Assembly: GCA_000146465.1 (NCBI GenBank)
Contig: CP001946.1
Reading direction: 5' to 3' (one strand)
DNA length: 64,000 nt
In this document: piece after piece, positions 14,973-49,507 of the stretch
Position numbering within the stretch: the stretch's first letter is position 1
How the letters are laid out: every line of letters starts with the position of its first letter
Notes under the pieces: generated by a model
Told to the model about the DNA's origin: nothing
The model's database searches: none
Seen by the model: the letters and a program-made list of their open reading frames with translations, nothing else
Position numbers and translations under genes: made by a program

Positions 14973-17882
14973 TTAATAAAAGGTATTGAGCCTATCCAAC
15001 GCCATAATTATTTTGTTTCTATCATATTTTCCAGCTTCAATAAAGTCTTCCAAATCTGCGCTGTTCATGTTGTTTATCACATCGACGTTTATGATTCTGG
15101 TTGTCTTTTCCTGGAAAAATGGTGCCAGTCTACCAGCATGTCTTTCCAGTTCCGTAAGGAGCCCAAGTTCCTCGTTACCCAGAGTAAGGCTCCCTAATAT
15201 TCCAATCCCTCCGTTTCTTGTTGTGAAATAGACAGAGTCAGACCGGGGTAATGACAGAGACCCTGGACACATGCTTGTTATTCTGTCTCCAATAGAAAGC
15301 GTCTCCATATTATAATTTCTGTCCAACATCAGAACCTTCCCATCTGTGGTTGTAAGAATAAGACTTTCTAGGGCGAAAACCATGGATTCTATCTGTTCTT
15401 TACCATTTGAAAGGAAATCTAGGGATAGATGGTTGGTTTCCTCGTTAAATGTAAAGACCCCAAAAGATCTGTAGATACATGAACAGGCAATCTTGCTTCC
15501 ATGCATTGCTATTCTATACGGTATAAAACCTATTTTCATTACACACAGCTCTACAAGGATTCGTGCTTGTCTTTTGTATACATATACATTGTGGTTTCTA
15601 TGTGTTGCCAAGTAATCCCCGTCGGAATCCAATGCATGCACAACACCCTCCCCTGTGCTTTCGTAGACAAGCTTGATACAATTCCCTCTTGTAGAAAACA
15701 TAGCAAGCCTTGAAAAGCTGCCCTCTCTCGAAAGGTTACTTACAACAACAAAGTAATGTCTTGACAGAAACCTTCCATCCATTACTATCTCATCTTGGAG
15801 GAAGAGATTGTGTACATGCCTTTTCACTTTCAAAGAGAGATAGGAATTGATTATCGGATCATTGTCGATGTTGAGGATTGGGCTTACGAGCCCTGTAACT
15901 TCCTTTTCATCATTCATGGCAGAGAACTTCAGCACATATCCATTCCTCGGATCCGTTTCTTGTAGCTTATCTTCAATAGAAATCTTAATTTTGGGAATGG
16001 ATCCAAGATGGCATCTGTAAATGGACTTCCCTACAGAAACATACAGATGATCGGCAACTAAGGCATAAGATATGCCTTCTAGGGAGCATTTATAGCACGA
16101 AAAGTCCTGGAGGTCTATAAATATGCTGGATACCCCAATTCCCATTATGTGCCTTCCAACGGGAATCATGGTTTCAATCATTGTATCAGAAAAGAATGAA
16201 GGCTTAAGAAATAGAAGCTCCCATTTGTTCTCTTCTTCTGTCTCTTTTAATATTGATAAGATGCTTCTGGAACTTGTTTCGGGCTCTTGCCCAAAAGTAA
16301 CTTCATATCCCACCCCATGCATGTCTCCAAAAAAGAGTCTCCCGCCTGCAATGCATACCGATTTCAAGATTTCATGTTTTCTTCTATGAACCACTTGGAG
16401 GTGTTTGTTCATAATAATAAACTCGTCGTAGTATGTTGATATAAACAGGTAGCTATGGAGATAGAGAAGGCTAACTTCGTAAGGGCATTCTACACACTCA
16501 ATGCATTCCATTGTCTCAAGGCATATTGCCTTAAGATTCCTGTCTCCAGTAAACACAATACATAAGCCTTGATGGTAGGAAGAGAGTACTATGTCCTTTA
16601 TCTCCAAACTTGAAATATCCCTTCCTTTCAGACGATACATGTGGTTTTTTGTATTGAAATAGCAGTAGCCATCTATATGTATGTTAAGGATTTCTCCAAA
16701 GTCCTGTTCTTCACTCATACCTTCTCTTAATACTTTCCCTTGGTTTGGATGTGACACAATCAAGACTCCATCTGCTATCCCGAATCTTCGGATAACTCCA
16801 GAAAGATTATATCTTGGTTCTACCGAAAGATCAACTGAATATGTGATCTTCTTAATCGAATTTCTTGAAATATATCTAAATGAAGTCCCAAGGTACGATA
16901 GAGACATTGGACAGGCACCACCTTCAAATGTTTTCAGAACCCTTAACTCTTTTCCTATTTCGAGATGGTAAGAATTTCCACAAGGTGATCCTCCATAGTA
17001 CAGCTTGTCTTCAAGATGAAGCAGAACACTAAACCAGGACCCAAGGTTTCCCAAAACCTCGGTTTTTAGAGATAAACCTTTGTAAGATGCAATTTCATTT
17101 TCACAGGTTTTGTTACTAGTTGGAATATTTCCTTCCAGGGATATGCGTATAATCTCTCCGTCCTCCATTGAGAGCAAAATACTTCCGTCTGCCGCCAGAG
17201 TGTTCTTGATCCCGGGATTTGCAAATTCGCTCTCAAGTACAAACTTGCCTCTCACATAGTAATATAACTTCCCTTCGCCTATAAGGAGCAACCCATCCCC
17301 TATGGCCCTTGCAGATACAAGCCCCTTTCTAAGGAGCATCTTTTCTTTTAGAATCATTTTAGGTTTGGAAGGCGCCATTTGATATCTCGAATAAAAGACG
17401 TCTCCAGAAATGTCTTCTAGCAAAAACCCGACATCACCCTTATTGGAAAATCCGTCAAGAATCTTATAGTATCCAAAGTCATTTACATCATCTCCAAAAA
17501 CAAGTCCTTCGTGGCCCATACTTGCAACAGTAACTGTATCATTTTCCGCAATAAATATAAAATTCTTCGAAGTTCGGATGCATTTGATATAGGATAGAGG
17601 AGCTGGCATCCTTCCGCACACAACTGGCTTGTCTCTACCCATAATGGCATAATCTCCCCTATTGGAAACCAACAGAAATCTTTTTGAACTCCTAAATACC
17701 ACTGGCACAATAAGTGTTACATATCCATTGGGATATATCACATCCACAGGCCTCAGGTCCAGATTGTATATCTCGACTATCATTCCTCTAGTTACCGCGA
17801 TACACGGTTCCCTCTCATATTCAATCCTTGCTCCGGAAACCGCAGAGTCAGGGTCGTTGATGGTTCTCATTGCATAGTGCAT
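14973..17882 (-). CDS. triple beta-propeller scaffold protein of the CPSF160/SF3b3(Rse1)/DDB1 family
   Basis: 969 aa of repeated WD-like blades with no enzymatic motifs. The C-terminal helical tail (ADLEDFIEAGKYDRNKIIMALDRLNTFY) resembles the SF3b3/CPSF-A C-terminus. ATG verified at 17880-17882. Confidence 0.65.
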   Translation of the reverse strand: MHYAMRTINDPDSAVSGARIEYEREPCIAVTRGMIVEIYNLDLRPVDVIYPNGYVTLIVPVVFRSSKRFLLVSNRGDYAIMGRDKPVVCGRMPAPLSYIKCIRTSKNFIFIAENDTVTVASMGHEGLVFGDDVNDFGYYKILDGFSNKGDVGFLLEDISGDVFYSRYQMAPSKPKMILKEKMLLRKGLVSARAIGDGLLLIGEGKLYYYVRGKFVLESEFANPGIKNTLAADGSILLSMEDGEIIRISLEGNIPTSNKTCENEIASYKGLSLKTEVLGNLGSWFSVLLHLEDKLYYGGSPCGNSYHLEIGKELRVLKTFEGGACPMSLSYLGTSFRYISRNSIKKITYSVDLSVEPRYNLSGVIRRFGIADGVLIVSHPNQGKVLREGMSEEQDFGEILNIHIDGYCYFNTKNHMYRLKGRDISSLEIKDIVLSSYHQGLCIVFTGDRNLKAICLETMECIECVECPYEVSLLYLHSYLFISTYYDEFIIMNKHLQVVHRRKHEILKSVCIAGGRLFFGDMHGVGYEVTFGQEPETSSRSILSILKETEEENKWELLFLKPSFFSDTMIETMIPVGRHIMGIGVSSIFIDLQDFSCYKCSLEGISYALVADHLYVSVGKSIYRCHLGSIPKIKISIEDKLQETDPRNGYVLKFSAMNDEKEVTGLVSPILNIDNDPIINSYLSLKVKRHVHNLFLQDEIVMDGRFLSRHYFVVVSNLSREGSFSRLAMFSTRGNCIKLVYESTGEGVVHALDSDGDYLATHRNHNVYVYKRQARILVELCVMKIGFIPYRIAMHGSKIACSCIYRSFGVFTFNEETNHLSLDFLSNGKEQIESMVFALESLILTTTDGKVLMLDRNYNMETLSIGDRITSMCPGSLSLPRSDSVYFTTRNGGIGILGSLTLGNEELGLLTELERHAGRLAPFFQEKTTRIINVDVINNMNSADLEDFIEAGKYDRNKIIMALDRLNTFY

Positions 17883-42384: not shown

Positions 42385-43479
42385 TTATTTACTGAAGGAT
42401 CGAGTATCTGCATTAACAACCTCTGTAAATGTGTATCCAGGAGACACCTTGCAGTTTATAAGCACACTCCCAGGAAGGATTGTGGCTCCCATTCCAATTA
42501 TAGAGCCTTCAATGTGTGATCCATGTCCAATCGAGACACTGGACATTACAATTGATGATATTATTTTTGACTCTTCCCCGATATCACAATCCCTTCCAAT
42601 TATCGAGTCAAGAAGAAGCACATTTCCTGTCTTTGTGTTGTTGTCAATCACATTACTTAGGTCCTTGAGGTTATACTTCTTCACATAGTCTTTTATGAAT
42701 TTGGCATTTGATTCGCTTGTTTTAAGTTTCTTATCGGTACTAATTGAATGTCTTTTGAGCAGAGCGTTTACGCTTAAATAATTACTTATGCTTCTTATCT
42801 GATAGATGTAACTCTTCCCAGGCCTATGAATTCCAACAGGATTTGTCAAGGCCAGGTTCTTCACAACATTTGGAAGAAGATCATGCTTAAAGCTGAAATA
42901 ATCCGGCTTGAACATCTTGAACAGCGAAGTCTTGAGCATGTAGAACTGGAGGATGTCAAGATCTTTCGTAAGAGTTAGACCCTTCTTCAATAGATGGAAG
43001 GGAATCTCTTCGTTACAGTCGTTTGAATAAAACATCAAGTCGTCCCCTTTGTATCCTAGAATAGATGTTTCTGATACAGCATTTCCTAGAATCACCATGA
43101 GTGCTTTCTTACTGTCGAAGTAGTGAAATGCCATTGCCTGAATGTCCATGTTGGTTACAATATCTCCTTTGCACACAAGAACATCATTAGATGTTATCCT
43201 TGGATATAAACTTAAGAGAGACGCAACTGTTCCATCGTATGTGTCGATCCCCACATATTCTACCGGTACATCGATATCTTCTCCCAAAGCACTCATGAGA
43301 TCTTCCTTTTCCTCATTCAGCCCAACCACAAAAAACCTTTTTGAGACGCTCTTTAGGCACTCCATTGTATGTAGAATCATTGGGCTATTCATGATTGGGA
43401 GGCATGCCTTTGAAAACTTCTCATTCACTATTGGAAACAGCTCTGTCCCAGGACCTATCAAGATTATTATCTCAAACAT
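42385..43479 (-). CDS. nucleotidyltransferase + left-handed beta-helix protein: GDP-mannose pyrophosphorylase (Psa1/GMPP)-like, alternatively eIF2B-gamma-like
   Basis: The N-terminal NTP-transferase fold has PMILHTMECL (compare Psa1 PMILHQIEAL), but the catalytic loop reads IGPGTELFPI instead of GGxGTRLRPLT. C-terminal hexapeptide repeats (IGRDCDIGEESKIISSIVMSSVSIGHGSHIEGSIIGMGATI). Length 364 aa is Psa1-like. Track start is TTG. The first ATG is 43477-43479. Confidence 0.7.
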   Translation of the reverse strand: MFEIIILIGPGTELFPIVNEKFSKACLPIMNSPMILHTMECLKSVSKRFFVVGLNEEKEDLMSALGEDIDVPVEYVGIDTYDGTVASLLSLYPRITSNDVLVCKGDIVTNMDIQAMAFHYFDSKKALMVILGNAVSETSILGYKGDDLMFYSNDCNEEIPFHLLKKGLTLTKDLDILQFYMLKTSLFKMFKPDYFSFKHDLLPNVVKNLALTNPVGIHRPGKSYIYQIRSISNYLSVNALLKRHSISTDKKLKTSESNAKFIKDYVKKYNLKDLSNVIDNNTKTGNVLLLDSIIGRDCDIGEESKIISSIVMSSVSIGHGSHIEGSIIGMGATILPGSVLINCKVSPGYTFTEVVNADTRSFSK

Positions 43480-43555
43480 ATGAGAATAGGGGATGGAAAA
43501 TGAATCCAATTGGTCTCTCCATGGCTAAGTCAAGGAAGGAATTCTCGGTTCTATA

Positions 43556-44782
43556 ATGTGTAGGAAGACTAAGGGAGTGTTCCTTTTGTTCTTTTCTGTA
43601 AGACTTGGCATAATGCTTTGGGAGGTTAGATTTCAGCACCTCTATTCCTCATATCTGGAAAGAGGACTGCCATGGTTTAAGCCAGATACTTTGACAGGAA
43701 AGATGGCTACTGATGGAAGATTGTTTGGCGATGCACAGCTCAAAGCTTCAAACCTTAGGCTCAAAAGCCTGTATAAAGAGATGAAAGCTCTTGTGCTGTA
43801 CATGGGAGTTGTATTCTTGATATTCAACAACAAGATCCGAAGCAAAGCAATCAGGTTGTTGGGATTTCTTTGGATACCCAATTCAGAAGTAATGTTCCTA
43901 TTACTTCTGATTTCCACAATTACCTTTATAGAGAAACTCTGTGGTGTAGGGCTCACACTAGTAGAAGGCACGTGCAGTGTGAGATATATAGAGTATCCGT
44001 TTAATATGGTAGTTTTATTTCTTGTAGAGCTCCCACTCACAATATGCCTCATAATAAAGCTTTTTGAGCTCCTGAGGAAAAAGACTATGGCGACATTCTA
44101 TGCTGCCTTTGTAATAAGCAACTTATTCAACACCTTTTGGAATGCAAGGATAGATAAGAACAGGCTAACCAAGGTTCCTCTTGAGAAGTTTCCGTCGAAA
44201 CTACAAGCGATGCTTAAGTCCGAGGGACTGGAAGAATCGATCTACAAAGTTAAAGGCACCCAAGAGAAAAAAAATGCATCTCTGATTGGATTTAGCAGCT
44301 TTAAAAGAATTGAAATAACCGGAGACTTTGACAAAGATCCAAAAAAACTATATCCTGTCCTGTTCCATGAAATAGGCCATTCGATTGATAACATTATACT
44401 AAAGAAAAAGATTATTATACACATAATAGTGGGATGCGAGGCGTTAGCATTTTGGTTGATTTATGTAAAAGGAAGCAAGGCTTTTGGATTTTCAGACATA
44501 ACGTCCGAGTCATTTGTCTTGATCATTCTTGCCATGTATCTGGTTCTTGGAAGGACTTTGATCCTTATCCCTTTAAATATGTATGTGCAGCGTTCGGAGT
44601 TATTTGCCGATGAAATTGCATTGGCAAACGGACATGGAAAAGAGCTTTCTCAAACACTGTTTGACATGGCTTTAGAGCACAGCACAGTTATTGATACGAC
44701 ATATCTTTTCAATGCGATAGCATCGTTACATCCTATTGTTAGAGAAAGAATCGATAGATGTGGAAGTCTCCTGCAGAAATAG
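43556..44782 (+). CDS. STE24: Ste24-family (M48A) integral-membrane zinc metalloprotease, paralogue A
   Basis: Multi-TM. NASLIGFSSFKRIEITGDF aligns to ZMPSTE24 NAYFYGFFKNKRIVLFDTL. Zinc site HEIGHS (HExxH). Downstream glutamate in QRSELFADEIA (compare FEFQADAFA). C-terminus LHPIVRERI (compare SHPPLLERL). Confidence 0.75.
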   Translation: MCRKTKGVFLLFFSVRLGIMLWEVRFQHLYSSYLERGLPWFKPDTLTGKMATDGRLFGDAQLKASNLRLKSLYKEMKALVLYMGVVFLIFNNKIRSKAIRLLGFLWIPNSEVMFLLLLISTITFIEKLCGVGLTLVEGTCSVRYIEYPFNMVVLFLVELPLTICLIIKLFELLRKKTMATFYAAFVISNLFNTFWNARIDKNRLTKVPLEKFPSKLQAMLKSEGLEESIYKVKGTQEKKNASLIGFSSFKRIEITGDFDKDPKKLYPVLFHEIGHSIDNIILKKKIIIHIIVGCEALAFWLIYVKGSKAFGFSDITSESFVLIILAMYLVLGRTLILIPLNMYVQRSELFADEIALANGHGKELSQTLFDMALEHSTVIDTTYLFNAIASLHPIVRERIDRCGSLLQK

Positions 44783-44807
44783 TAACTAAAATATCCCATA
44801 TTTAGGA

Positions 44808-45398
44808 ATGAATGGAATTGAAGACAGCAATCCATTTGAAGAGCTTAAAGAATATGAAGTGGTTGTGGCATACGACGATGAAAACAAGAAGCTTTCCAAC
44901 GTAATGAAGGATAGAGGGCTTGATTATGTCGAGGTGAATCTGGCGGTTTCTGAGAAGCTCAGGACAGAATTTATGAAACATTTTAGAGTTTCTGAACTCC
45001 CTGTGCTCTTGATTGAAGGAATACCTGCTCTTGACGATCCAAGTGAAAGGATTAAGGAGTATATTGAGAGAAAAGAGAAAAAATCCTTAGAGAAAATTCA
45101 GAGTGTGATTGATCCTAACAAGATTACTCTTTTCATTAAGGGATCCCCCGAACATCCAAGATGTGGATTCACCAAGTCCCTTATAGAAATTTTGTATGGC
45201 TTAGGAGTAACAAGGGATAAAATAGAATACCTTGATGTTCTTTCAGATGAGGATATTAGGGAGAGACTAAAAGAAATAAACAGATGGCCCACTTTTCCAC
45301 AGGTATACATTAGGGGCCGATTCATAGGGGGGTTGGATATTGTCCGAAAGATGTCTGAAAAAGGAAAGCTTAAAGATGAACTCTCAGGAATAATCTGA
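44808..45398 (+). CDS. monothiol glutaredoxin, Grx3/Grx4 (PICOT)-type: Trx-like + CGFS Grx domain
   Basis: The C-terminal Grx domain KGSPEHPRCGFTKSLIEILYGLGV...WPTFPQVYIRGRFIGGLDIV carries a CGFS active site. The N-terminal half is thioredoxin-like. Confidence 0.85.
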   Translation: MNGIEDSNPFEELKEYEVVVAYDDENKKLSNVMKDRGLDYVEVNLAVSEKLRTEFMKHFRVSELPVLLIEGIPALDDPSERIKEYIERKEKKSLEKIQSVIDPNKITLFIKGSPEHPRCGFTKSLIEILYGLGVTRDKIEYLDVLSDEDIRERLKEINRWPTFPQVYIRGRFIGGLDIVRKMSEKGKLKDELSGII

Positions 45399-45458
45399 AA
45401 ATAAAACCTGTTGTTTGTATTCTTGATACATATTAAAAGAATTCCAACAAACAAAAAG

Positions 45459-46673
45459 ATGAAGTACCTTTCTCGAGGGATGTTCTATTTGTTCTTCATG
45501 CTTACGTATCTTGCCCAGATGATAGAGGTCTTGAATGTATTGATCACCAAAAGTCATCTGGACTCTGGACAAACAGGAATTGAAGAAGGACTAGCAACAA
45601 ACGAAATGGCAAAGAAAGATCAGGACTATGCCCCCAAAGCCAAGAAAGCAATAGGAAAAAGAAACAAGGAGCTACTTGAGGATATAGTGGCACACACTAT
45701 CCATTTTACCGCCAACATCTTGTTCTTTACTGGGATTGGAAAATCGTTTAGCATGAGAATACTTGGCAAGATCTTTGGGGAGATATTTGACCTTGAGATT
45801 GTGTTCCTTACAGCCGTAATTTCGATGATTTCCCTTGATGGTTTTATAGAGTATATTGTCTGCTTGGTATATAAGAATCCGTCGCTAGAAATGATTTTCT
45901 TGTGGTGTTTCTTTGCAATTGTATTTGTTATCCCAACATGTATCCTCATTTCTATAAAGCTCTTGAGGATCTTTGGATCCAGTTTCGTAATTTCCTGTTA
46001 TCTCTCCTACTTCATTCTGGAGATATCTGATATCTTATCTGTATCCAATGTGGATTTTAGTAAGATGGAGAAGGTGCCATCAAATATATTTTCGGAGAAT
46101 GTCCAGGTTCTTATGAAGGACAGAGGGCTTTCGGATTCTATCTATAGAGAAATAAATCCGGGAAAGAACGTCAATGCAGCTCTTATAGGGATTGGCGGTG
46201 CTGAGAGGATTGAAATCTACGGAAAAGTCGAGAATATGAACGATGGACAGCTGGAATCTATATTGATTCATGAAGTAGGACATTCCTATGATGGAAGTTT
46301 GGTCAAGAAGATATCGGTCTTTTTGATTCTTCTGGGTTTTGAAATGATGCTTTTAGTATTCTTGTACGATAACATAGCAAAAGAATTCATATGGAACAAT
46401 ATTTCGAAGGAGGGGTCATTTGTAGTGCTTGTATGCCTTTATTTTGCATCAATCCGTCCATGGTTGTTTATTCTGTATAACCTTACGTCTCAAAGTGCAG
46501 AGATGTACGCAGACCTTTTAACAAAACAATATAACTACAATGGAAAGCTGGCAGATACTCTATACAAGATATCTGTGGACTCCTTTGATTTCCTGGCACC
46601 ATCCTGGCTGTACAACAGCTTAAACTCGTTACATCCCAGTATAATGAACAGGATTGAATATCTAAGCAACTAA
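45459..46673 (+). CDS. STE24: Ste24-family (M48A) integral-membrane zinc metalloprotease, paralogue B
   Basis: Same architecture as paralogue A: NAALIGIGGAERIEIYGKV, HEVGHS, QSAEMYADLLT and LHPSIMNRIEYL. Track start at 45411 is TTG. The first ATG is 45459. Confidence 0.75.
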   Translation: MKYLSRGMFYLFFMLTYLAQMIEVLNVLITKSHLDSGQTGIEEGLATNEMAKKDQDYAPKAKKAIGKRNKELLEDIVAHTIHFTANILFFTGIGKSFSMRILGKIFGEIFDLEIVFLTAVISMISLDGFIEYIVCLVYKNPSLEMIFLWCFFAIVFVIPTCILISIKLLRIFGSSFVISCYLSYFILEISDILSVSNVDFSKMEKVPSNIFSENVQVLMKDRGLSDSIYREINPGKNVNAALIGIGGAERIEIYGKVENMNDGQLESILIHEVGHSYDGSLVKKISVFLILLGFEMMLLVFLYDNIAKEFIWNNISKEGSFVVLVCLYFASIRPWLFILYNLTSQSAEMYADLLTKQYNYNGKLADTLYKISVDSFDFLAPSWLYNSLNSLHPSIMNRIEYLSN

Positions 46674-46772
46674 TAAATCTTTAGAACATTTCGAGTGGGT
46701 CTTGAGGCTTTGGACGGAGTTTCTTTAGTGGGATTTGAAATCTGATGAGTCCTGTAAATGCGCATCCCCAGG

Positions 46773-47471
46773 ATGGAAGATTTTAAACAAAGTGTAAACA
46801 CCTACAGCTCAGAAGGAAGAATACATCAGATTGAGTATGCAATGAAGGCGATGAATCTTGGAACAACAACAATAGGAATAAGAACCAAGGATTTTGCAAT
46901 ATTGTGCTCTGAGAAGAAAATATTATCTACTTTGCAGAATCCTAGAACAGTAGTGAAACATTATGAGATCTACGACCACATTGTGCTTGGCTTTTCGGGG
47001 ATAAGCGGAGACACAAAGACTATTGTAAAGAAATCTCGAGATTTTTGCATTTCTCATATGCATATGTATGGAGAAAATGCTAGTGTAGAGAGGCTTCTGA
47101 AGTATCTTTCCAGCCTGAGTCTAAGGTTTGGAGAGGAGGACGAGGCTAAAATGATATTTCGAAGGCCTTTTGGAGTCTCACTAATTGTGGCAGGGTTTGA
47201 TAGCGAGCCCAGGTTATATTCTTTGGATCCTTCCGGATCATATGTTAGCTACAAAGCAAAGGCTATAGGATCCGGACATGAAGTGGTTGAGGGTATTCTC
47301 GAGAACGAATATGAAGAATACAAGGAGCTTGACCAGTCCTTGAAAAAGGCTCTTTACACCCTGTCAAAAGTGATGAAGGACAAGATCAATAAGGAGAATG
47401 TAGAGGTTGTGACGGTTACAAAAGAGGGAAACAAGTTTCTGACTCCAGAAGAAATATCGGTATATCTATGA
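46773..47471 (+). CDS. 20S proteasome alpha subunit (alpha6/PSMA1-like)
   Basis: YSSEGRIHQIEYAMKA N-terminal signature and PFGVSLIVAGFD core. An upstream in-frame ATG at 46758 is an alternative start. ATG 46773 has ccccagg immediately upstream. Confidence 0.9.
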   Translation: MEDFKQSVNTYSSEGRIHQIEYAMKAMNLGTTTIGIRTKDFAILCSEKKILSTLQNPRTVVKHYEIYDHIVLGFSGISGDTKTIVKKSRDFCISHMHMYGENASVERLLKYLSSLSLRFGEEDEAKMIFRRPFGVSLIVAGFDSEPRLYSLDPSGSYVSYKAKAIGSGHEVVEGILENEYEEYKELDQSLKKALYTLSKVMKDKINKENVEVVTVTKEGNKFLTPEEISVYL

Positions 47472-47499: not shown

Positions 47500-48408
47500 T
47501 TATGTTTCATCAGGTATGTCATACGTACTTAGATATCTATTTTTCTTCCTTACTCCTATCTTCGTGCAGTATTCAGACTCAAAACTTACTTCACTGTCGG
47601 TATAGTCTTTTTTATAGTGCTTTTTGAGTTCAACAATAGCTCTGGTTAGAGAGTCTCTCTCTTTTAGTAGGCTAAACAAGGAAGGACTATAGACTCTATT
47701 CAAGATAGACTTAAGTTCTTCGTCTGTTGGAAGACATTTTCTTGCAAACTCTTTGAAGTAGAACTCGTCGACTTTTGGATTTCTATGAACTATGAGTCTT
47801 AATGCCTCAAGGAGACCTAGTTCATGGTATATGTACTTCAAAGACTCCAAGGAAAGTTGTTCCATATATTTTCTGTTGCAATGCTTTTTAAACAAGGCAA
47901 TCTTTGAATTTCCGCACAGCTTATCCTTACATCCGTTGTTGTTATTGCAAAAATCCTCAAGAATCTTAGTGAAGTAGCTAAAGACATCGATGCTGAAATG
48001 AGTAAATAAGTATTTCAATATTCTGCCGATTATCTTGTTGTATGTATCCGATCCACAGCAAACCTTTTCGTTTTGTGTCTTCTCATGTATGAATATTTGT
48101 AATAGTAGCCGTTCTATTGTTTCATCACGGAAGTTTAAGGATGCAATCCTCTGCATTGCACCATCATAGTCCTCAAAATAGATATAGTTGTATAGTATTT
48201 CATGATTATATATAACCTTTTGGTTCCCGACTAGCTTGTGCTGAAGAGCTTGAATAGCCTTGTTTTTTTGGTTAGTTCTTCTGTAGATGCTTGCTAAGAC
48301 CGAAGGATTTCTCCTCAAAATCTTCTTTGTTATACTTTTGTCCAACAGGCCTGTGTCACAGTTGGGTGTCCCAAAAATAACCAAGTCCTTTTTTCTTATC
48401 AAGCTCAT
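47500..48408 (-). CDS. hypothetical protein (302 aa), Cys-rich central region
   Basis: ATG verified at 48406-48408. No family recognised. Confidence 0.55.
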   Translation of the reverse strand: MSLIRKKDLVIFGTPNCDTGLLDKSITKKILRRNPSVLASIYRRTNQKNKAIQALQHKLVGNQKVIYNHEILYNYIYFEDYDGAMQRIASLNFRDETIERLLLQIFIHEKTQNEKVCCGSDTYNKIIGRILKYLFTHFSIDVFSYFTKILEDFCNNNNGCKDKLCGNSKIALFKKHCNRKYMEQLSLESLKYIYHELGLLEALRLIVHRNPKVDEFYFKEFARKCLPTDEELKSILNRVYSPSLFSLLKERDSLTRAIVELKKHYKKDYTDSEVSFESEYCTKIGVRKKNRYLSTYDIPDET

Positions 48409-48541
48409 GGATATTGATCTTAGGGTTTTGTATAAAATTCACATAATTGGTTGGTATGATGTTCTGGAGAAATCGGCTTGTGATTGGACATTCAGTATAA
48501 GTGGGATTGGACGAGTATTGGATATAAGAAAGAGGAAAGCA

Positions 48542-49507
48542 ATGGGGATGGACACCAAGATTAAGATAGATCTAGACAAGGAGATGTATCCCGGGGGGTC
48601 TGAAGTAAGAGGAGCCGTTGACATAAAGATGAGGAGTCCTCTTCGGATAAGTAAGATAAATCTGGTGTTCTCTAAGACAACAAGACTAAAGATACAGGAG
48701 ATTGAGAGAAAGGAAAATACAGAGAACAACGAAGTCGAGAAGATATATGATGGATACAGACATGAATTTGAGATATACTCAAGTGATGACCCATTAGAAG
48801 AGGTATCTAGTGGGCACCATCGATTCCCATTCCGATTCATGCTCCGGAGAGAAGACGAAGGATCTCTTGAAATAAAAGGAGTCTACTTTGATATCCTGTG
48901 CAATATAAGAAGTATATACGACTTATATGCAGAGATTTATATCCTTGGAGTTCACAATCCGGCATATACTGTCCGAAGAGAGATACAAATAGTAGATCCC
49001 ATCATGGAGCCCAGGAACTTTAATACAGCCATTGATGTGCTATCACCCATCTGCTTTCTAAGTAGGAGATATAACATCCGTCTTGAAGTTGACAAGGAAT
49101 TCTATTACTCGGGAGACTGTCTAGTTACTGAAGCTTCTATACCATCTAAGAAGCCCAAGATTAAGAGAATGGAGTGCTTTATATATGAAATTCTCAGCGT
49201 TTCTGTGGAAGGAAAAGAGATTCTTAGGACAAAATACATTGGAGGGGGAGAGGCCGAACATTATGATGGTGGAAGAGTCCTTCGGGCATCCCTGAAGATA
49301 CCTTCAACAACACCATCCACTGTCATGGGCAGTAACTTCAGCATAAGAGTTGTTTTGTTCATAAACCTTGAGCTGTATAGAGGAACACCTGTCCGAATCA
49401 AGAAATACATTCATGTCATCAAGAAAAATATAATTCATCCAGAAATTGATTGTATGGATGTTCTTGAGGGAGAAATATATCCGGAAAGAATACTTGTATT
49501 ACCATAG
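48542..49507 (+). CDS. arrestin-fold protein (arrestin-related trafficking adaptor or Vps26-like)
   Basis: The N-terminal block MGMDTKIKIDLDKEMYPGGSEVRGAVDIKMRSPLRISKINLVFS resembles arrestin-N. A second beta-sandwich half is predicted. The track ORF extends upstream to 48287 and overlaps the divergent neighbour. ATG 48542 is preferred. Confidence 0.5.
   Translation: MGMDTKIKIDLDKEMYPGGSEVRGAVDIKMRSPLRISKINLVFSKTTRLKIQEIERKENTENNEVEKIYDGYRHEFEIYSSDDPLEEVSSGHHRFPFRFMLRREDEGSLEIKGVYFDILCNIRSIYDLYAEIYILGVHNPAYTVRREIQIVDPIMEPRNFNTAIDVLSPICFLSRRYNIRLEVDKEFYYSGDCLVTEASIPSKKPKIKRMECFIYEILSVSVEGKEILRTKYIGGGEAEHYDGGRVLRASLKIPSTTPSTVMGSNFSIRVVLFINLELYRGTPVRIKKYIHVIKKNIIHPEIDCMDVLEGEIYPERILVLP

What the first reader, a model, noticed from the sequence alone, without database searches (positions are those of the whole stretch)
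43556..46673. Tandem pair of divergent Ste24-type (M48A) membrane metalloproteases bracketing a CGFS glutaredoxin
- Two same-strand genes of about 405 aa each have the full Ste24/ZMPSTE24 architecture: the FKN-KRI-V-FDTL-like block, the HExxH zinc site, the downstream E-x-x-AD third ligand and the LHP-x-x-ER C-terminus.
- They are only weakly similar to each other (HEIGHS vs HEVGHS, and very different loops). This points to an old duplication followed by divergence, not a recent copy.
- Reduced parasite genomes rarely keep paralogues. Retaining two intramembrane CAAX-type proteases therefore suggests sub-functionalisation. One copy may have a non-CAAX role, such as translocon unclogging or host-interface protein processing.
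- The gene sandwiched between them is a Grx3/4 monothiol glutaredoxin. The protease-redox-protease arrangement is unusual and may be a conserved microsynteny block.
Basis: partly seen in the sequence, partly recalled or inferred. Interest (0 to 1): 0.7.

Follow-up and report, generated by a model that had tools for sequence, protein, structure and literature searches.

The report
Known divergent Ste24 protease pair, Encephalitozoon
The two membrane zinc-protease genes flanking a glutaredoxin gene are real, intact and anciently diverged, but they are annotated Encephalitozoon intestinalis genes from a microsporidia-specific divergent Ste24 lineage whose expansion was published in 2013, so the finding is correct but ordinary.

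Summary
The window is Encephalitozoon intestinalis chromosome V. Copy A (43556-44782, 408 aa) and copy B (45459-46673, 404 aa) both pass Pfam Peptidase_M48. Both keep the HExxH motif, the downstream Glu-x-x-Ala-Asp and the C-terminal His-Pro...Arg. Both fold in AlphaFold2 models that match only Ste24p/ZMPSTE24 over their full length. They are 27% identical as proteins and share no DNA similarity. A monothiol glutaredoxin lies between them; its active site is CGFT, not CGFS.

The interpretation needs correcting:
- **Not the canonical enzyme.** Neither gene is the canonical CAAX protease. Encephalitozoon carries a third, canonical Ste24 elsewhere; I recovered the E. romaleae copy.
- **Already published.** Nakjang et al. 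2013 described this divergent microsporidian clade and its extra duplication in Encephalitozoon.
- **No CaaX prenylation.** A 2026 paper reports that the CaaX prenyltransferases are absent from most Eumicrosporea, including this lineage. All copies therefore probably act on non-prenylated substrates.

Synteny adds one small refinement. Copy B holds the ancestral position (Grx upstream in Pancytospora, proteasome-alpha downstream as far out as Nematocida). Copy A is the added, faster-evolving copy, seen only in the Encephalitozoon/Ordospora lineage. Grx looks like a syntenic passenger, not a functional partner.

The parts
43556..44782 (+). Copy A: divergent Ste24-like M48 zinc metalloprotease, 408 aa (E. 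intestinalis 'putative zinc metalloprotease'). This is the faster-evolving, lineage-restricted duplicate.
   Evidence: ORF. PF01435 at 26.8 bits. 100% match to P0001. AF2 model pLDDT 83, pTM 0.81. The top 12 Foldseek PDB hits are all ZMPSTE24/Ste24p, TM about 0.6. Identity is 62% to E. cuniculi and 30% to O. colligata. pN 0.22 against pS 0.71 versus E. cuniculi.
44366..44380 (+). Copy A zinc-binding motif HEIGH (residues 271-275). The third ligand, Glu348, is at 44597-44599 within SELFAD.
   Evidence: Invariant columns H271 E272 H275 E348 A351 D352 in alignment A1; motif table.
44808..45398 (+). Class II (monothiol) glutaredoxin, 196 aa. Grx domain at residues ~95-193 with active site CGFT. 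The N-terminal ~92 residues are unassigned and possibly Trx-like.
   Evidence: PF00462 at 70.8 bits. TIGR00365 Grx4-family at 111.3 bits, just under the 117.1 cutoff. Best PDB hits are GLRX5, GLRX3 and Grx5, E about 1e-23, covering only residues 93-193. CGFT, WPT[FY]PQ and GGLD are invariant in 4 orthologues.
45459..46673 (+). Copy B: divergent Ste24-like M48 zinc metalloprotease, 404 aa (Eint_051450). This is the slower-evolving copy at the ancestral genomic position.
46269..46283 (+). Copy B zinc-binding motif HEVGH (residues 271-275). The third ligand, Glu348, is at 46500-46502 within AEMYAD.
   Evidence: Invariant columns in A1/A2; motif table.
46758..47471 (+). Context: proteasome alpha-subunit gene immediately downstream of copy B. 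It serves as the syntenic anchor for the ancestral M48 position.
   Evidence: ORF. The orthologues carry PF10584/PF00227. M48 followed by proteasome-alpha is adjacent in N. granulosis, the L007 organism, O. colligata, E. cuniculi and Nematocida parisii.
42385..43509 (-). Context: eIF2B-gamma/NTP-transferase-like gene upstream of copy A, divergently oriented. It is the left boundary of the inserted copy.
   Evidence: ORF. The orthologues carry PF25084/PF24894. tblastn matches in L001, L006 and L007.

Best explanation
The window carries Eint chromosome-V orthologues of E. cuniculi ECU05_1370 and ECU05_1390. Both belong to the microsporidia-specific 'divergent Ste24' lineage. That lineage arose by duplication of Ste24 in the last common microsporidian ancestor, and in Encephalitozoon it sits beside a third, canonical Ste24 encoded on another chromosome. 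Each protein is predicted to be a seven-helix intramembrane barrel with a gluzincin site (HExxH plus a distal Glu) facing an enclosed chamber, as in Ste24p/ZMPSTE24, so each is most likely an active ER/endomembrane zinc endoprotease. Copy B holds the ancestral locus (Grx upstream, proteasome-alpha downstream) and evolves more slowly. Copy A is a second duplicate placed upstream of Grx in the ancestor of Encephalitozoon, Ordospora and a related metagenomic lineage. It evolves about 1.5-2 times faster but stays under purifying selection, which points to sub- or neo-functionalisation rather than decay. CaaX prenyltransferases are reported absent from this lineage, so the substrates are probably not prenylated CAAX proteins. 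My inference is a prenylation-independent Ste24 activity: clearing or processing membrane and secretory proteins during late, spore-forming stages, when all three E. cuniculi genes are up-regulated. The glutaredoxin is an unrelated cytosolic class II Grx that lies between the copies for historical (syntenic) reasons. Shown here: gene identity, fold, motif conservation, synteny history and the existence of a canonical third copy. Inferred: catalytic activity, membrane location, non-CAAX substrates, and the passenger status of Grx.
Against: No experiment addresses activity, location or substrates of A or B. The canonical copy was recovered from E. romaleae, not from E. intestinalis itself; its presence in E. 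intestinalis rests on Nakjang 2013's statement that all non-Nematocida genomes sampled have at least two copies. My NJ tree does not recover A and B as sister groups. The backbone is unresolved and A is a long branch, so the timing of the A/B duplication rests on synteny, on the absence of A-like genes elsewhere and on the published PhyloBayes tree. Loss of copy A in Nosema rather than later gain cannot be excluded. TM-scores to the crystal structures are moderate (0.5-0.62). The absence of prenyltransferases in Encephalitozoon is taken from a paper and was not re-tested here.
Confidence: 0.78

Rival explanations
1. One reading: these two genes are the organism's CAAX prenyl proteases. One keeps the CAAX/a-factor-type function and the other has drifted to a new role.
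For: Both have the Ste24 fold and an intact active site. Some database entries name B orthologues 'Caax prenyl protease'.
Against: A separate canonical Ste24 exists in Encephalitozoon, with strong PF16491 and PF01435 hits and 2e-62 to Ste24p. A and B score only about 35 bits to Ste24p as a profile and lack PF16491. CaaX prenyltransferases are reported missing from this lineage.
Confidence: 0.07
2. Protease-Grx-protease is a functional module. The three genes would be co-transcribed or co-regulated, and the glutaredoxin would service (Fe-S or redox) or regulate the proteases.
For: The spacers are very short (25 and 60 bp) and all three genes are on the same strand. The block is conserved in E. 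cuniculi, Ordospora and L007. The Grx-to-M48 adjacency also occurs in Pancytospora.
Against: Short spacers are typical of this compact genome: 46 and 84 bp to unrelated neighbours. Neighbouring unrelated genes (proteasome subunits, PUA, eIF2B-gamma-like, arrestin-like) are just as syntenic. Grx is absent next to the M48 gene in Nematocida, N. granulosis and Hamiltosporidium. Ste24 is a zinc enzyme with no known redox cofactor (established knowledge).
Confidence: 0.1
3. Copy A is a relaxed, decaying duplicate on its way to becoming a pseudogene.
For: A is the fastest-evolving gene in the neighbourhood: 30% identity between E. intestinalis and O. colligata, against 43-79% for its neighbours. It has the lower Pfam score and a low-confidence loop at residues 138-147.
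Against: The ORF is full-length and intact in at least 7 lineages, and all catalytic residues are invariant. pN 0.22 against pS 0.71. ECU05_1370 is expressed and rises late in infection. The 235-aa 'truncated' call in a second O. colligata assembly is an annotation difference over the stretch compared: the first 571 bp are identical and the ORF is intact there.
Confidence: 0.05
4. The divergent clade, including A and B, was acquired from bacteria by horizontal transfer, because its nearest non-microsporidian sequence hits are bacterial Ste24-type proteins.
For: The distant hits for B and for the A+B profile are bacterial or metagenomic M48 proteins with PF16491: Nitrospirota and Spirochaetes.
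Against: Those hits are weak (E 1e-4 to 1e-13). Nakjang 2013 tested HGT explicitly and found no phylogenetic support for it. The M48-proteasome-alpha linkage is conserved back to Nematocida, which fits an old vertical gene.
Confidence: 0.04

Closest known systems
Microsporidian 'divergent Ste24' clade (Nakjang et al. 2013, Genome Biol Evol 5:2285; E. cuniculi ECU05_1370 and ECU05_1390; N. parisii NEPG_00127)
   Same: These are the E. intestinalis orthologues. The chromosome-V position, flanking genes, protein length and motifs are the same.
   Different: Nothing essential differs. This analysis adds that copy B is the positional orthologue of the single ancestral gene and that copy A is confined to the Encephalitozoon/Ordospora/L007 lineage.
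Canonical Ste24p / ZMPSTE24 (MEROPS M48A; PDB 4il3, 4aw6)
   Same: Predicted seven-helix barrel fold over the full length. HExxH plus a distal Glu, the NA..G..RI strand motif and the C-terminal HP...R are all present.
   Different: Sequence identity is only 15-19%. The N-terminal five-helix domain is not recognised by PF16491. HE[IV]GHS replaces HE[FL]GHW. The proteins are 40-70 residues shorter. A separate canonical orthologue exists in the genus. CAAX substrates are probably absent.
Other M48 subfamilies: HtpX (M48B), Oma1 (M48C), BepA and BlaR1 (M56)
   Different: Those proteins match only the roughly 90-190-residue catalytic core. They lack the seven-helix chamber that both models share with Ste24.
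Class II monothiol glutaredoxins (Grx3/4/PICOT and Grx5)
   Same: The Grx domain scores E about 1e-23 to GLRX5, GLRX3 and Grx5. The WPTFPQ and GGLD motifs are present.
   Different: The active site is CGFT, and CKFT in Pancytospora, instead of CGFS. The score is just below the TIGR00365 cutoff. The N-terminal 92 residues match no Pfam or PDB sequence, so the Grx3/4-type Trx-Grx architecture is not demonstrated.

Membership tests
Peptidase family M48 (Pfam PF01435) | Score above the Pfam gathering threshold | tested here: met
   A scores 26.8 bits and B 41.9 bits against a cutoff of 20.3.
Peptidase family M48 (Pfam PF01435) | Gluzincin site: HExxH plus a distal Glu ligand | tested here: met
   H271, E272, H275 and E348 are invariant in 16 orthologues of A and B and in more distant microsporidian homologues.
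Ste24 / M48A architecture | Full-length seven-TM helical barrel like Ste24p/ZMPSTE24 | tested here: met
Ste24 / M48A architecture | N-terminal five-helix domain recognisable by sequence (PF16491 Peptidase_M48_N) | tested here: not met
   Neither A nor B nor any divergent-clade member hits PF16491. The canonical E. romaleae paralogue scores 130.7 bits. The helices are present in the models, so the domain exists structurally but is highly diverged.
Canonical eukaryotic Ste24 orthogroup (CAAX prenyl protease 1) | Orthology to yeast STE24 / human ZMPSTE24 | tested here: not met
   A different Encephalitozoon gene fills this role (P0197, 2e-62 to 4il3). A and B are only 25% identical to it over partial length. 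Nakjang 2013 places them in the divergent clade.
Canonical eukaryotic Ste24 orthogroup (CAAX prenyl protease 1) | Cleavage of farnesylated CAAX substrates | not testable with these tools
   No biochemical data exist. The literature reports FTase/GGTase-I absent from most Eumicrosporea, including this lineage.
Microsporidian divergent Ste24 clade (Nakjang 2013) | Closest relatives are microsporidian proteins of about 400-434 aa, including the sole Nematocida copy; separate from canonical Ste24 | tested here: met
   The exhaustive HMM search finds 28 hits below 1e-30. Those with names come from Nosema, Hamiltosporidium and Pancytospora. The Nucleospora, Astathelohania and Nematocida NEPG_00127 copies score 95-109 bits, and general Ste24 proteins score 82.7 bits or less.
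Microsporidian divergent Ste24 clade (Nakjang 2013) | Orthology to E. cuniculi ECU05_1370 and ECU05_1390 | tested here: met
   E. cuniculi chromosome V (AL590445) has the same M48-Grx-M48 block with identical flanking genes, at 62% and 72% identity. Mapping these genes to the locus tags is inferred from the chromosome and from the tags being two apart.
Class II monothiol glutaredoxin (Grx3/4 type) | Grx domain with the CGFS active site | tested here: not met
   The Grx domain is present (PF00462 at 70.8 bits), but the active site is CGFT, invariant in 4 orthologues. TIGR00365 scores 111.3 against a cutoff of 117.1. It is a variant monothiol site.
Class II monothiol glutaredoxin (Grx3/4 type) | N-terminal thioredoxin-like domain | tested here: inconclusive
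   Residues 1-92 are conserved among orthologues, including Pancytospora, but match no Pfam, NCBIfam or PDB sequence.

The most novel reading that the evidence does not exclude
Encephalitozoon keeps three Ste24-family proteases (one canonical, plus this divergent tandem pair) although its lineage is reported to have lost CaaX prenylation. All three would then be natural 'prenylation-independent' Ste24 enzymes. The divergent pair, with copy A rapidly retuned, would process or clear non-prenylated secretory or membrane proteins (translocon-clogging precursors, spore-wall, polar-tube or chitin-synthase cargo) during sporogony. The 2026 small-GTPase paper that reports the prenylation loss does not mention Ste24, and neither literature search on microsporidian Ste24/M48 returned a paper making this link.
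Probability: 0.4. Interest if true: 0.5.

Novelty: already known. Interest (0 to 1): 0.22.

Why it matters
As a discovery it matters little. The genes are annotated, and the family expansion, including the Encephalitozoon-specific extra copy, was published in 2013.

It has some value as a pointer. Microsporidia keep and repeatedly duplicate a highly diverged Ste24 lineage, which is the only Ste24 left in Nematocida, while most of them have reportedly lost CaaX prenylation. That makes these proteins a natural system for separating the prenylation-independent functions of Ste24/ZMPSTE24 (translocon declogging, membrane-protein quality control, chitin-synthase trafficking) from CAAX processing. 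They are also possible parasite-specific metalloprotease drug targets.

The synteny result (B ancestral, A added, Grx a passenger) is a modest refinement of the published phylogeny.

Tried and rejected
- **Profile search in the search for homologous proteins.** The exhaustive representative search was needed instead.
- **NJ trees, with and without bootstrap.** Clades A and B are each well supported (90-100%). Their relationship to each other and to other microsporidian copies is unresolved, because identities sit at a saturated 20-30%. I therefore do not claim a tree-based date for the duplication.
- **Search for A or Grx remnants upstream of the B orthologue in Nosema granulosis.** The 2.7-kb gap holds none.
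- **Two unannotated Nematocida ORFs upstream of its M48 gene (196 aa and 380 aa).** I tested whether they were a cryptic Grx or M48. They are not.
- **NCBIfam for A and B.** It returned nothing, as expected for a prokaryote-oriented library.
- **dN/dS against E. cuniculi.** dS is saturated at about 2, so only the qualitative result (pN far below pS) is used.
- **The 235-aa copy-A call in a second O. colligata assembly.** It looked like a possible truncation, but the 571 bp spanning the gene's 5' end are identical to the first assembly and the full ORF translates intact, so it is a gene-calling artefact.
- **Hamiltosporidium tandem M48 pair as an orthologue of the A/B pair.** I rejected this as unproven. 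The intervening gene differs (Prp31-like), the order is reversed (conserved copy first), and the second copy is not A-like by HMM scoring.
Full report
**What is in the window**

On the + strand there are three closely spaced ORFs:
- Copy A, 43556-44782, 408 aa.
- A middle gene, 44808-45398, 196 aa.
- Copy B, an ORF ending at 46673. Its mechanical start is TTG 45411, but every orthologue begins at the ATG at 45459, which gives 404 aa.

The spacers are 25 and 60 bp. The spacers to unrelated neighbours are 46 and 84 bp. Both flanking proteins pass Pfam Peptidase_M48, at 26.8 and 41.9 bits against a gathering score of 20.3. The middle protein is a glutaredoxin (PF00462, 70.8 bits). A and B align end to end at 27% identity, E 1e-42. 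They share no significant nucleotide similarity: codon-aligned identity is 44%, and 30% at third positions. The factual observation is therefore confirmed, and a recent or assembly duplication is excluded.

**Source organism**

Both proteins are 100% identical to Encephalitozoon intestinalis ATCC 50506 entries. Copy A is annotated 'putative zinc metalloprotease' and copy B is Eint_051450. The window is chromosome V of that published genome, so both genes are already annotated.

**Fold and active site**

- A profile of A and B orthologues finds only Ste24p (4il3, E 8e-8) and ZMPSTE24 in the PDB by sequence.
- The AlphaFold2 models are confident: B has pLDDT 89 and pTM 0.83, and A has pLDDT 83 and pTM 0.81.
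- For each model, the 12 best Foldseek PDB hits are exclusively ZMPSTE24/Ste24p chains, aligned over about 440 columns with TM 0.5-0.62. The next hit is BlaR1 at E above 0.2.
- The residues equivalent to the Ste24 catalytic apparatus are invariant across 16 orthologues of both copies: the NA..G..RIE strand, H271/E272/H275, E348-x-x-A-D and N386...S-x-H-P...R398. The HExxH, Glu-x-x-x-Asp and His-Pro...Arg positions are also kept in Nosema, Pancytospora, Hamiltosporidium, Nucleospora and Nematocida homologues, while the strand motif and the residue before the Asp vary in the most divergent copies.
- Against E. cuniculi, pN is far below pS for both genes: 0.22 against 0.71 for A and 0.15 against 0.68 for B, with dS saturated.

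Both are therefore intact, constrained, Ste24-fold zinc proteases. Neither is a pseudogene.

Neither A nor B, nor any close relative, is recognised by PF16491, the N-terminal five-helix model that marks canonical Ste24. The exhaustive HMM search of 1.8 billion representatives gives 28 proteins below 1e-30, all about 400-434 aa. Those that carry names come from Nosema granulosis, Hamiltosporidium and Pancytospora. The Nucleospora, Astathelohania and Nematocida parisii (NEPG_00127) copies follow at 95-109 bits. Generic Ste24 proteins score 82.7 bits or less.

Among those weaker hits is the cluster containing 'CAAX prenyl protease 1 [Encephalitozoon romaleae]' (P0197, 411 aa). That protein has PF16491 at 131 bits and PF01435 at 135 bits. 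It matches Ste24p 4il3 at 2e-62 over its full length. It is only 25% identical to A or B, and only across the C-terminal part. So Encephalitozoon has a third, canonical Ste24 elsewhere, and the window pair is something else.

**This is already published**

Nakjang et al. 2013 (PMC3879972) report the following:
- A Ste24 duplication in the last common microsporidian ancestor.
- One highly divergent clade whose top BLAST hits are bacterial, without phylogenetic support for horizontal transfer.
- Loss of the canonical copy in Nematocida.
- Three E. cuniculi genes (ECU02_1380, ECU05_1370, ECU05_1390), all up-regulated late in infection.

The E. cuniculi chromosome-V locus has exactly the M48-Grx-M48 arrangement with the same neighbours, so the window genes are orthologues of ECU05_1370 and ECU05_1390. 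Later papers treat Ste24/M48 as a recognised expanded family in microsporidia. An E. cuniculi 'CAAX prenyl protease 1' of 47 kDa, probably the canonical one, was detected by mass spectrometry in Encephalitozoon spore material.

**History of the locus (a small addition to the literature)**

The block [eIF2B-gamma-like(-)] A, Grx, B, proteasome-alpha is conserved in E. cuniculi, Ordospora colligata and a deeper metagenomic microsporidian, L007. In L007 the B orthologue is only 39% identical to E. intestinalis B. Outside that lineage the picture is:

| Organism | Arrangement |
|---|---|
| Pancytospora philotis | Grx, then a single M48, then a homologue of the window's 47500-48408 ORF, then proteasome-alpha (inverted) |
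| Nosema granulosis | eIF2B-gamma-like and PUA, a 2.7-kb gap with no A or Grx remnant, then M48, proteasome-alpha and arrestin-like |
| Nematocida parisii | M48 then proteasome-alpha, with no Grx |

When all other microsporidian homologues are scored against clade-A and clade-B HMMs, the only A-like protein is P0041, a close relative of the L007 copy.

From this I conclude that B is the positional orthologue of the single ancestral divergent Ste24. A is the added copy, and it is the fastest-evolving gene in the neighbourhood: 30% identity between E. intestinalis and Ordospora, against 43-79% for the neighbours.

My NJ trees support each clade but cannot resolve the backbone, because pairwise identities are a saturated 20-30%. 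Loss of A in Nosema cannot be formally excluded. Nosema and Hamiltosporidium have their own extra divergent copies. In Hamiltosporidium two of them form a tandem pair around a Prp31-like gene. Tandem duplication of this gene is therefore recurrent.

**The glutaredoxin**

It is a class II monothiol Grx. Its best PDB matches are GLRX5, GLRX3 and yeast Grx5 (E about 1e-23), and they cover only residues 93-193. TIGR00365 scores 111 bits, just under its cutoff. The WPTFPQ and GGLD motifs are present. The active site is CGFT in all four orthologues examined, and CKFT in Pancytospora; it is not CGFS. The N-terminal 92 residues are conserved but matched nothing, so the Grx3/4 (Trx-Grx) architecture is plausible but untested.

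The Grx is adjacent to the M48 gene only in part of the phylogeny. Unrelated neighbours are equally syntenic. I therefore read it as a passenger of conserved gene order, not as a functional partner. Co-transcription was not tested.

**Likely function**

These points are shown: the Ste24-like chamber fold, the intact gluzincin site, purifying selection, and late-infection up-regulation in E. cuniculi (taken from the literature).

The rest is inferred. Both proteins are probably active intramembrane-chamber zinc endoproteases of the ER or endomembrane system.

[quoted passage not shown] It also reports that most Eumicrosporea have lost all prenylation except Rab geranylgeranylation. If that is correct, Encephalitozoon has no CAAX substrates, and all three Ste24 paralogues must serve prenylation-independent roles. 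Candidate roles are translocon declogging and membrane-protein quality control (from my own knowledge of yeast and human Ste24) and Chs3/chitin-synthase trafficking (cited by Nakjang). That paper does not mention Ste24. The combination is therefore a reasonable hypothesis that neither my searches nor that paper showed to be already made, but it remains untested.

**Verdict**

The feature is already known. Interest is low.

Noticed in passing
window 45459-47471; L010 6001-8360; L006 8001-10031: The adjacency of the divergent Ste24 gene and a proteasome alpha-subunit gene, on the same strand, is conserved from Nematocida parisii through Nosema granulosis to Encephalitozoon/Ordospora. This is unusually deep microsynteny for microsporidia.
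   Followed up: partly
window 44808-45398 (active site near residues 119-122); L008 455-1039: The monothiol glutaredoxin has CGFT instead of CGFS in Encephalitozoon, Ordospora and L007. The Pancytospora orthologue has CKFT and a degraded WPTFPQ motif (GTFPM), which raises the question of whether Fe-S cluster binding is retained.
   Followed up: partly
L005 6001-10220 (Hamiltosporidium magnivora): There is an apparently independent tandem pair of divergent M48 genes (413 aa and a very divergent 378 aa) around a Prp31/Nop-like gene, followed by a Symplekin gene. Symplekin also lies near the N. granulosis M48 locus.
   Followed up: partly
L006 5308-8001 (Nosema granulosis): A 2.7-kb stretch without credible ORFs lies upstream of the copy-B orthologue, at the place where Encephalitozoon has copy A and Grx. 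A faint integrase-like ORF lies further downstream (16691-17014). This could reflect rearrangement or mobile-element activity at the locus.
   Followed up: partly
L002 4484-5191 versus L001 3971-5191 (Ordospora colligata): One O. colligata assembly annotates copy A as a 235-aa fragment and the other as 406 aa. The 571 bp spanning the gene's 5' end are identical between the two, and the full ORF is intact in the second assembly, so this is a gene-calling inconsistency in the public annotation.
   Followed up: yes
window 47500-48408 (-) and 48287-49507 (+): The mechanical 406-aa arrestin-like ORF overlaps the 5' end of the conserved 302-aa minus-strand ORF by about 120 bp. Orthologues are 319-321 aa, so the true start is probably a downstream ATG. 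The 302-aa protein has no Pfam hit but is conserved as far as Pancytospora.
   Followed up: partly
P0057, P0060, P0076 (Astathelohania contejeani); P0032, P0073, P0075, P0154 (Nosema granulosis): Several microsporidia carry three or four divergent M48 copies on different contigs. Some have altered metal-site neighbours, for example HELHH in P0061 and HEMQH in P0062 (organism not identified for either). The family looks more expansion-prone than the 2013 sampling showed.
   Followed up: no
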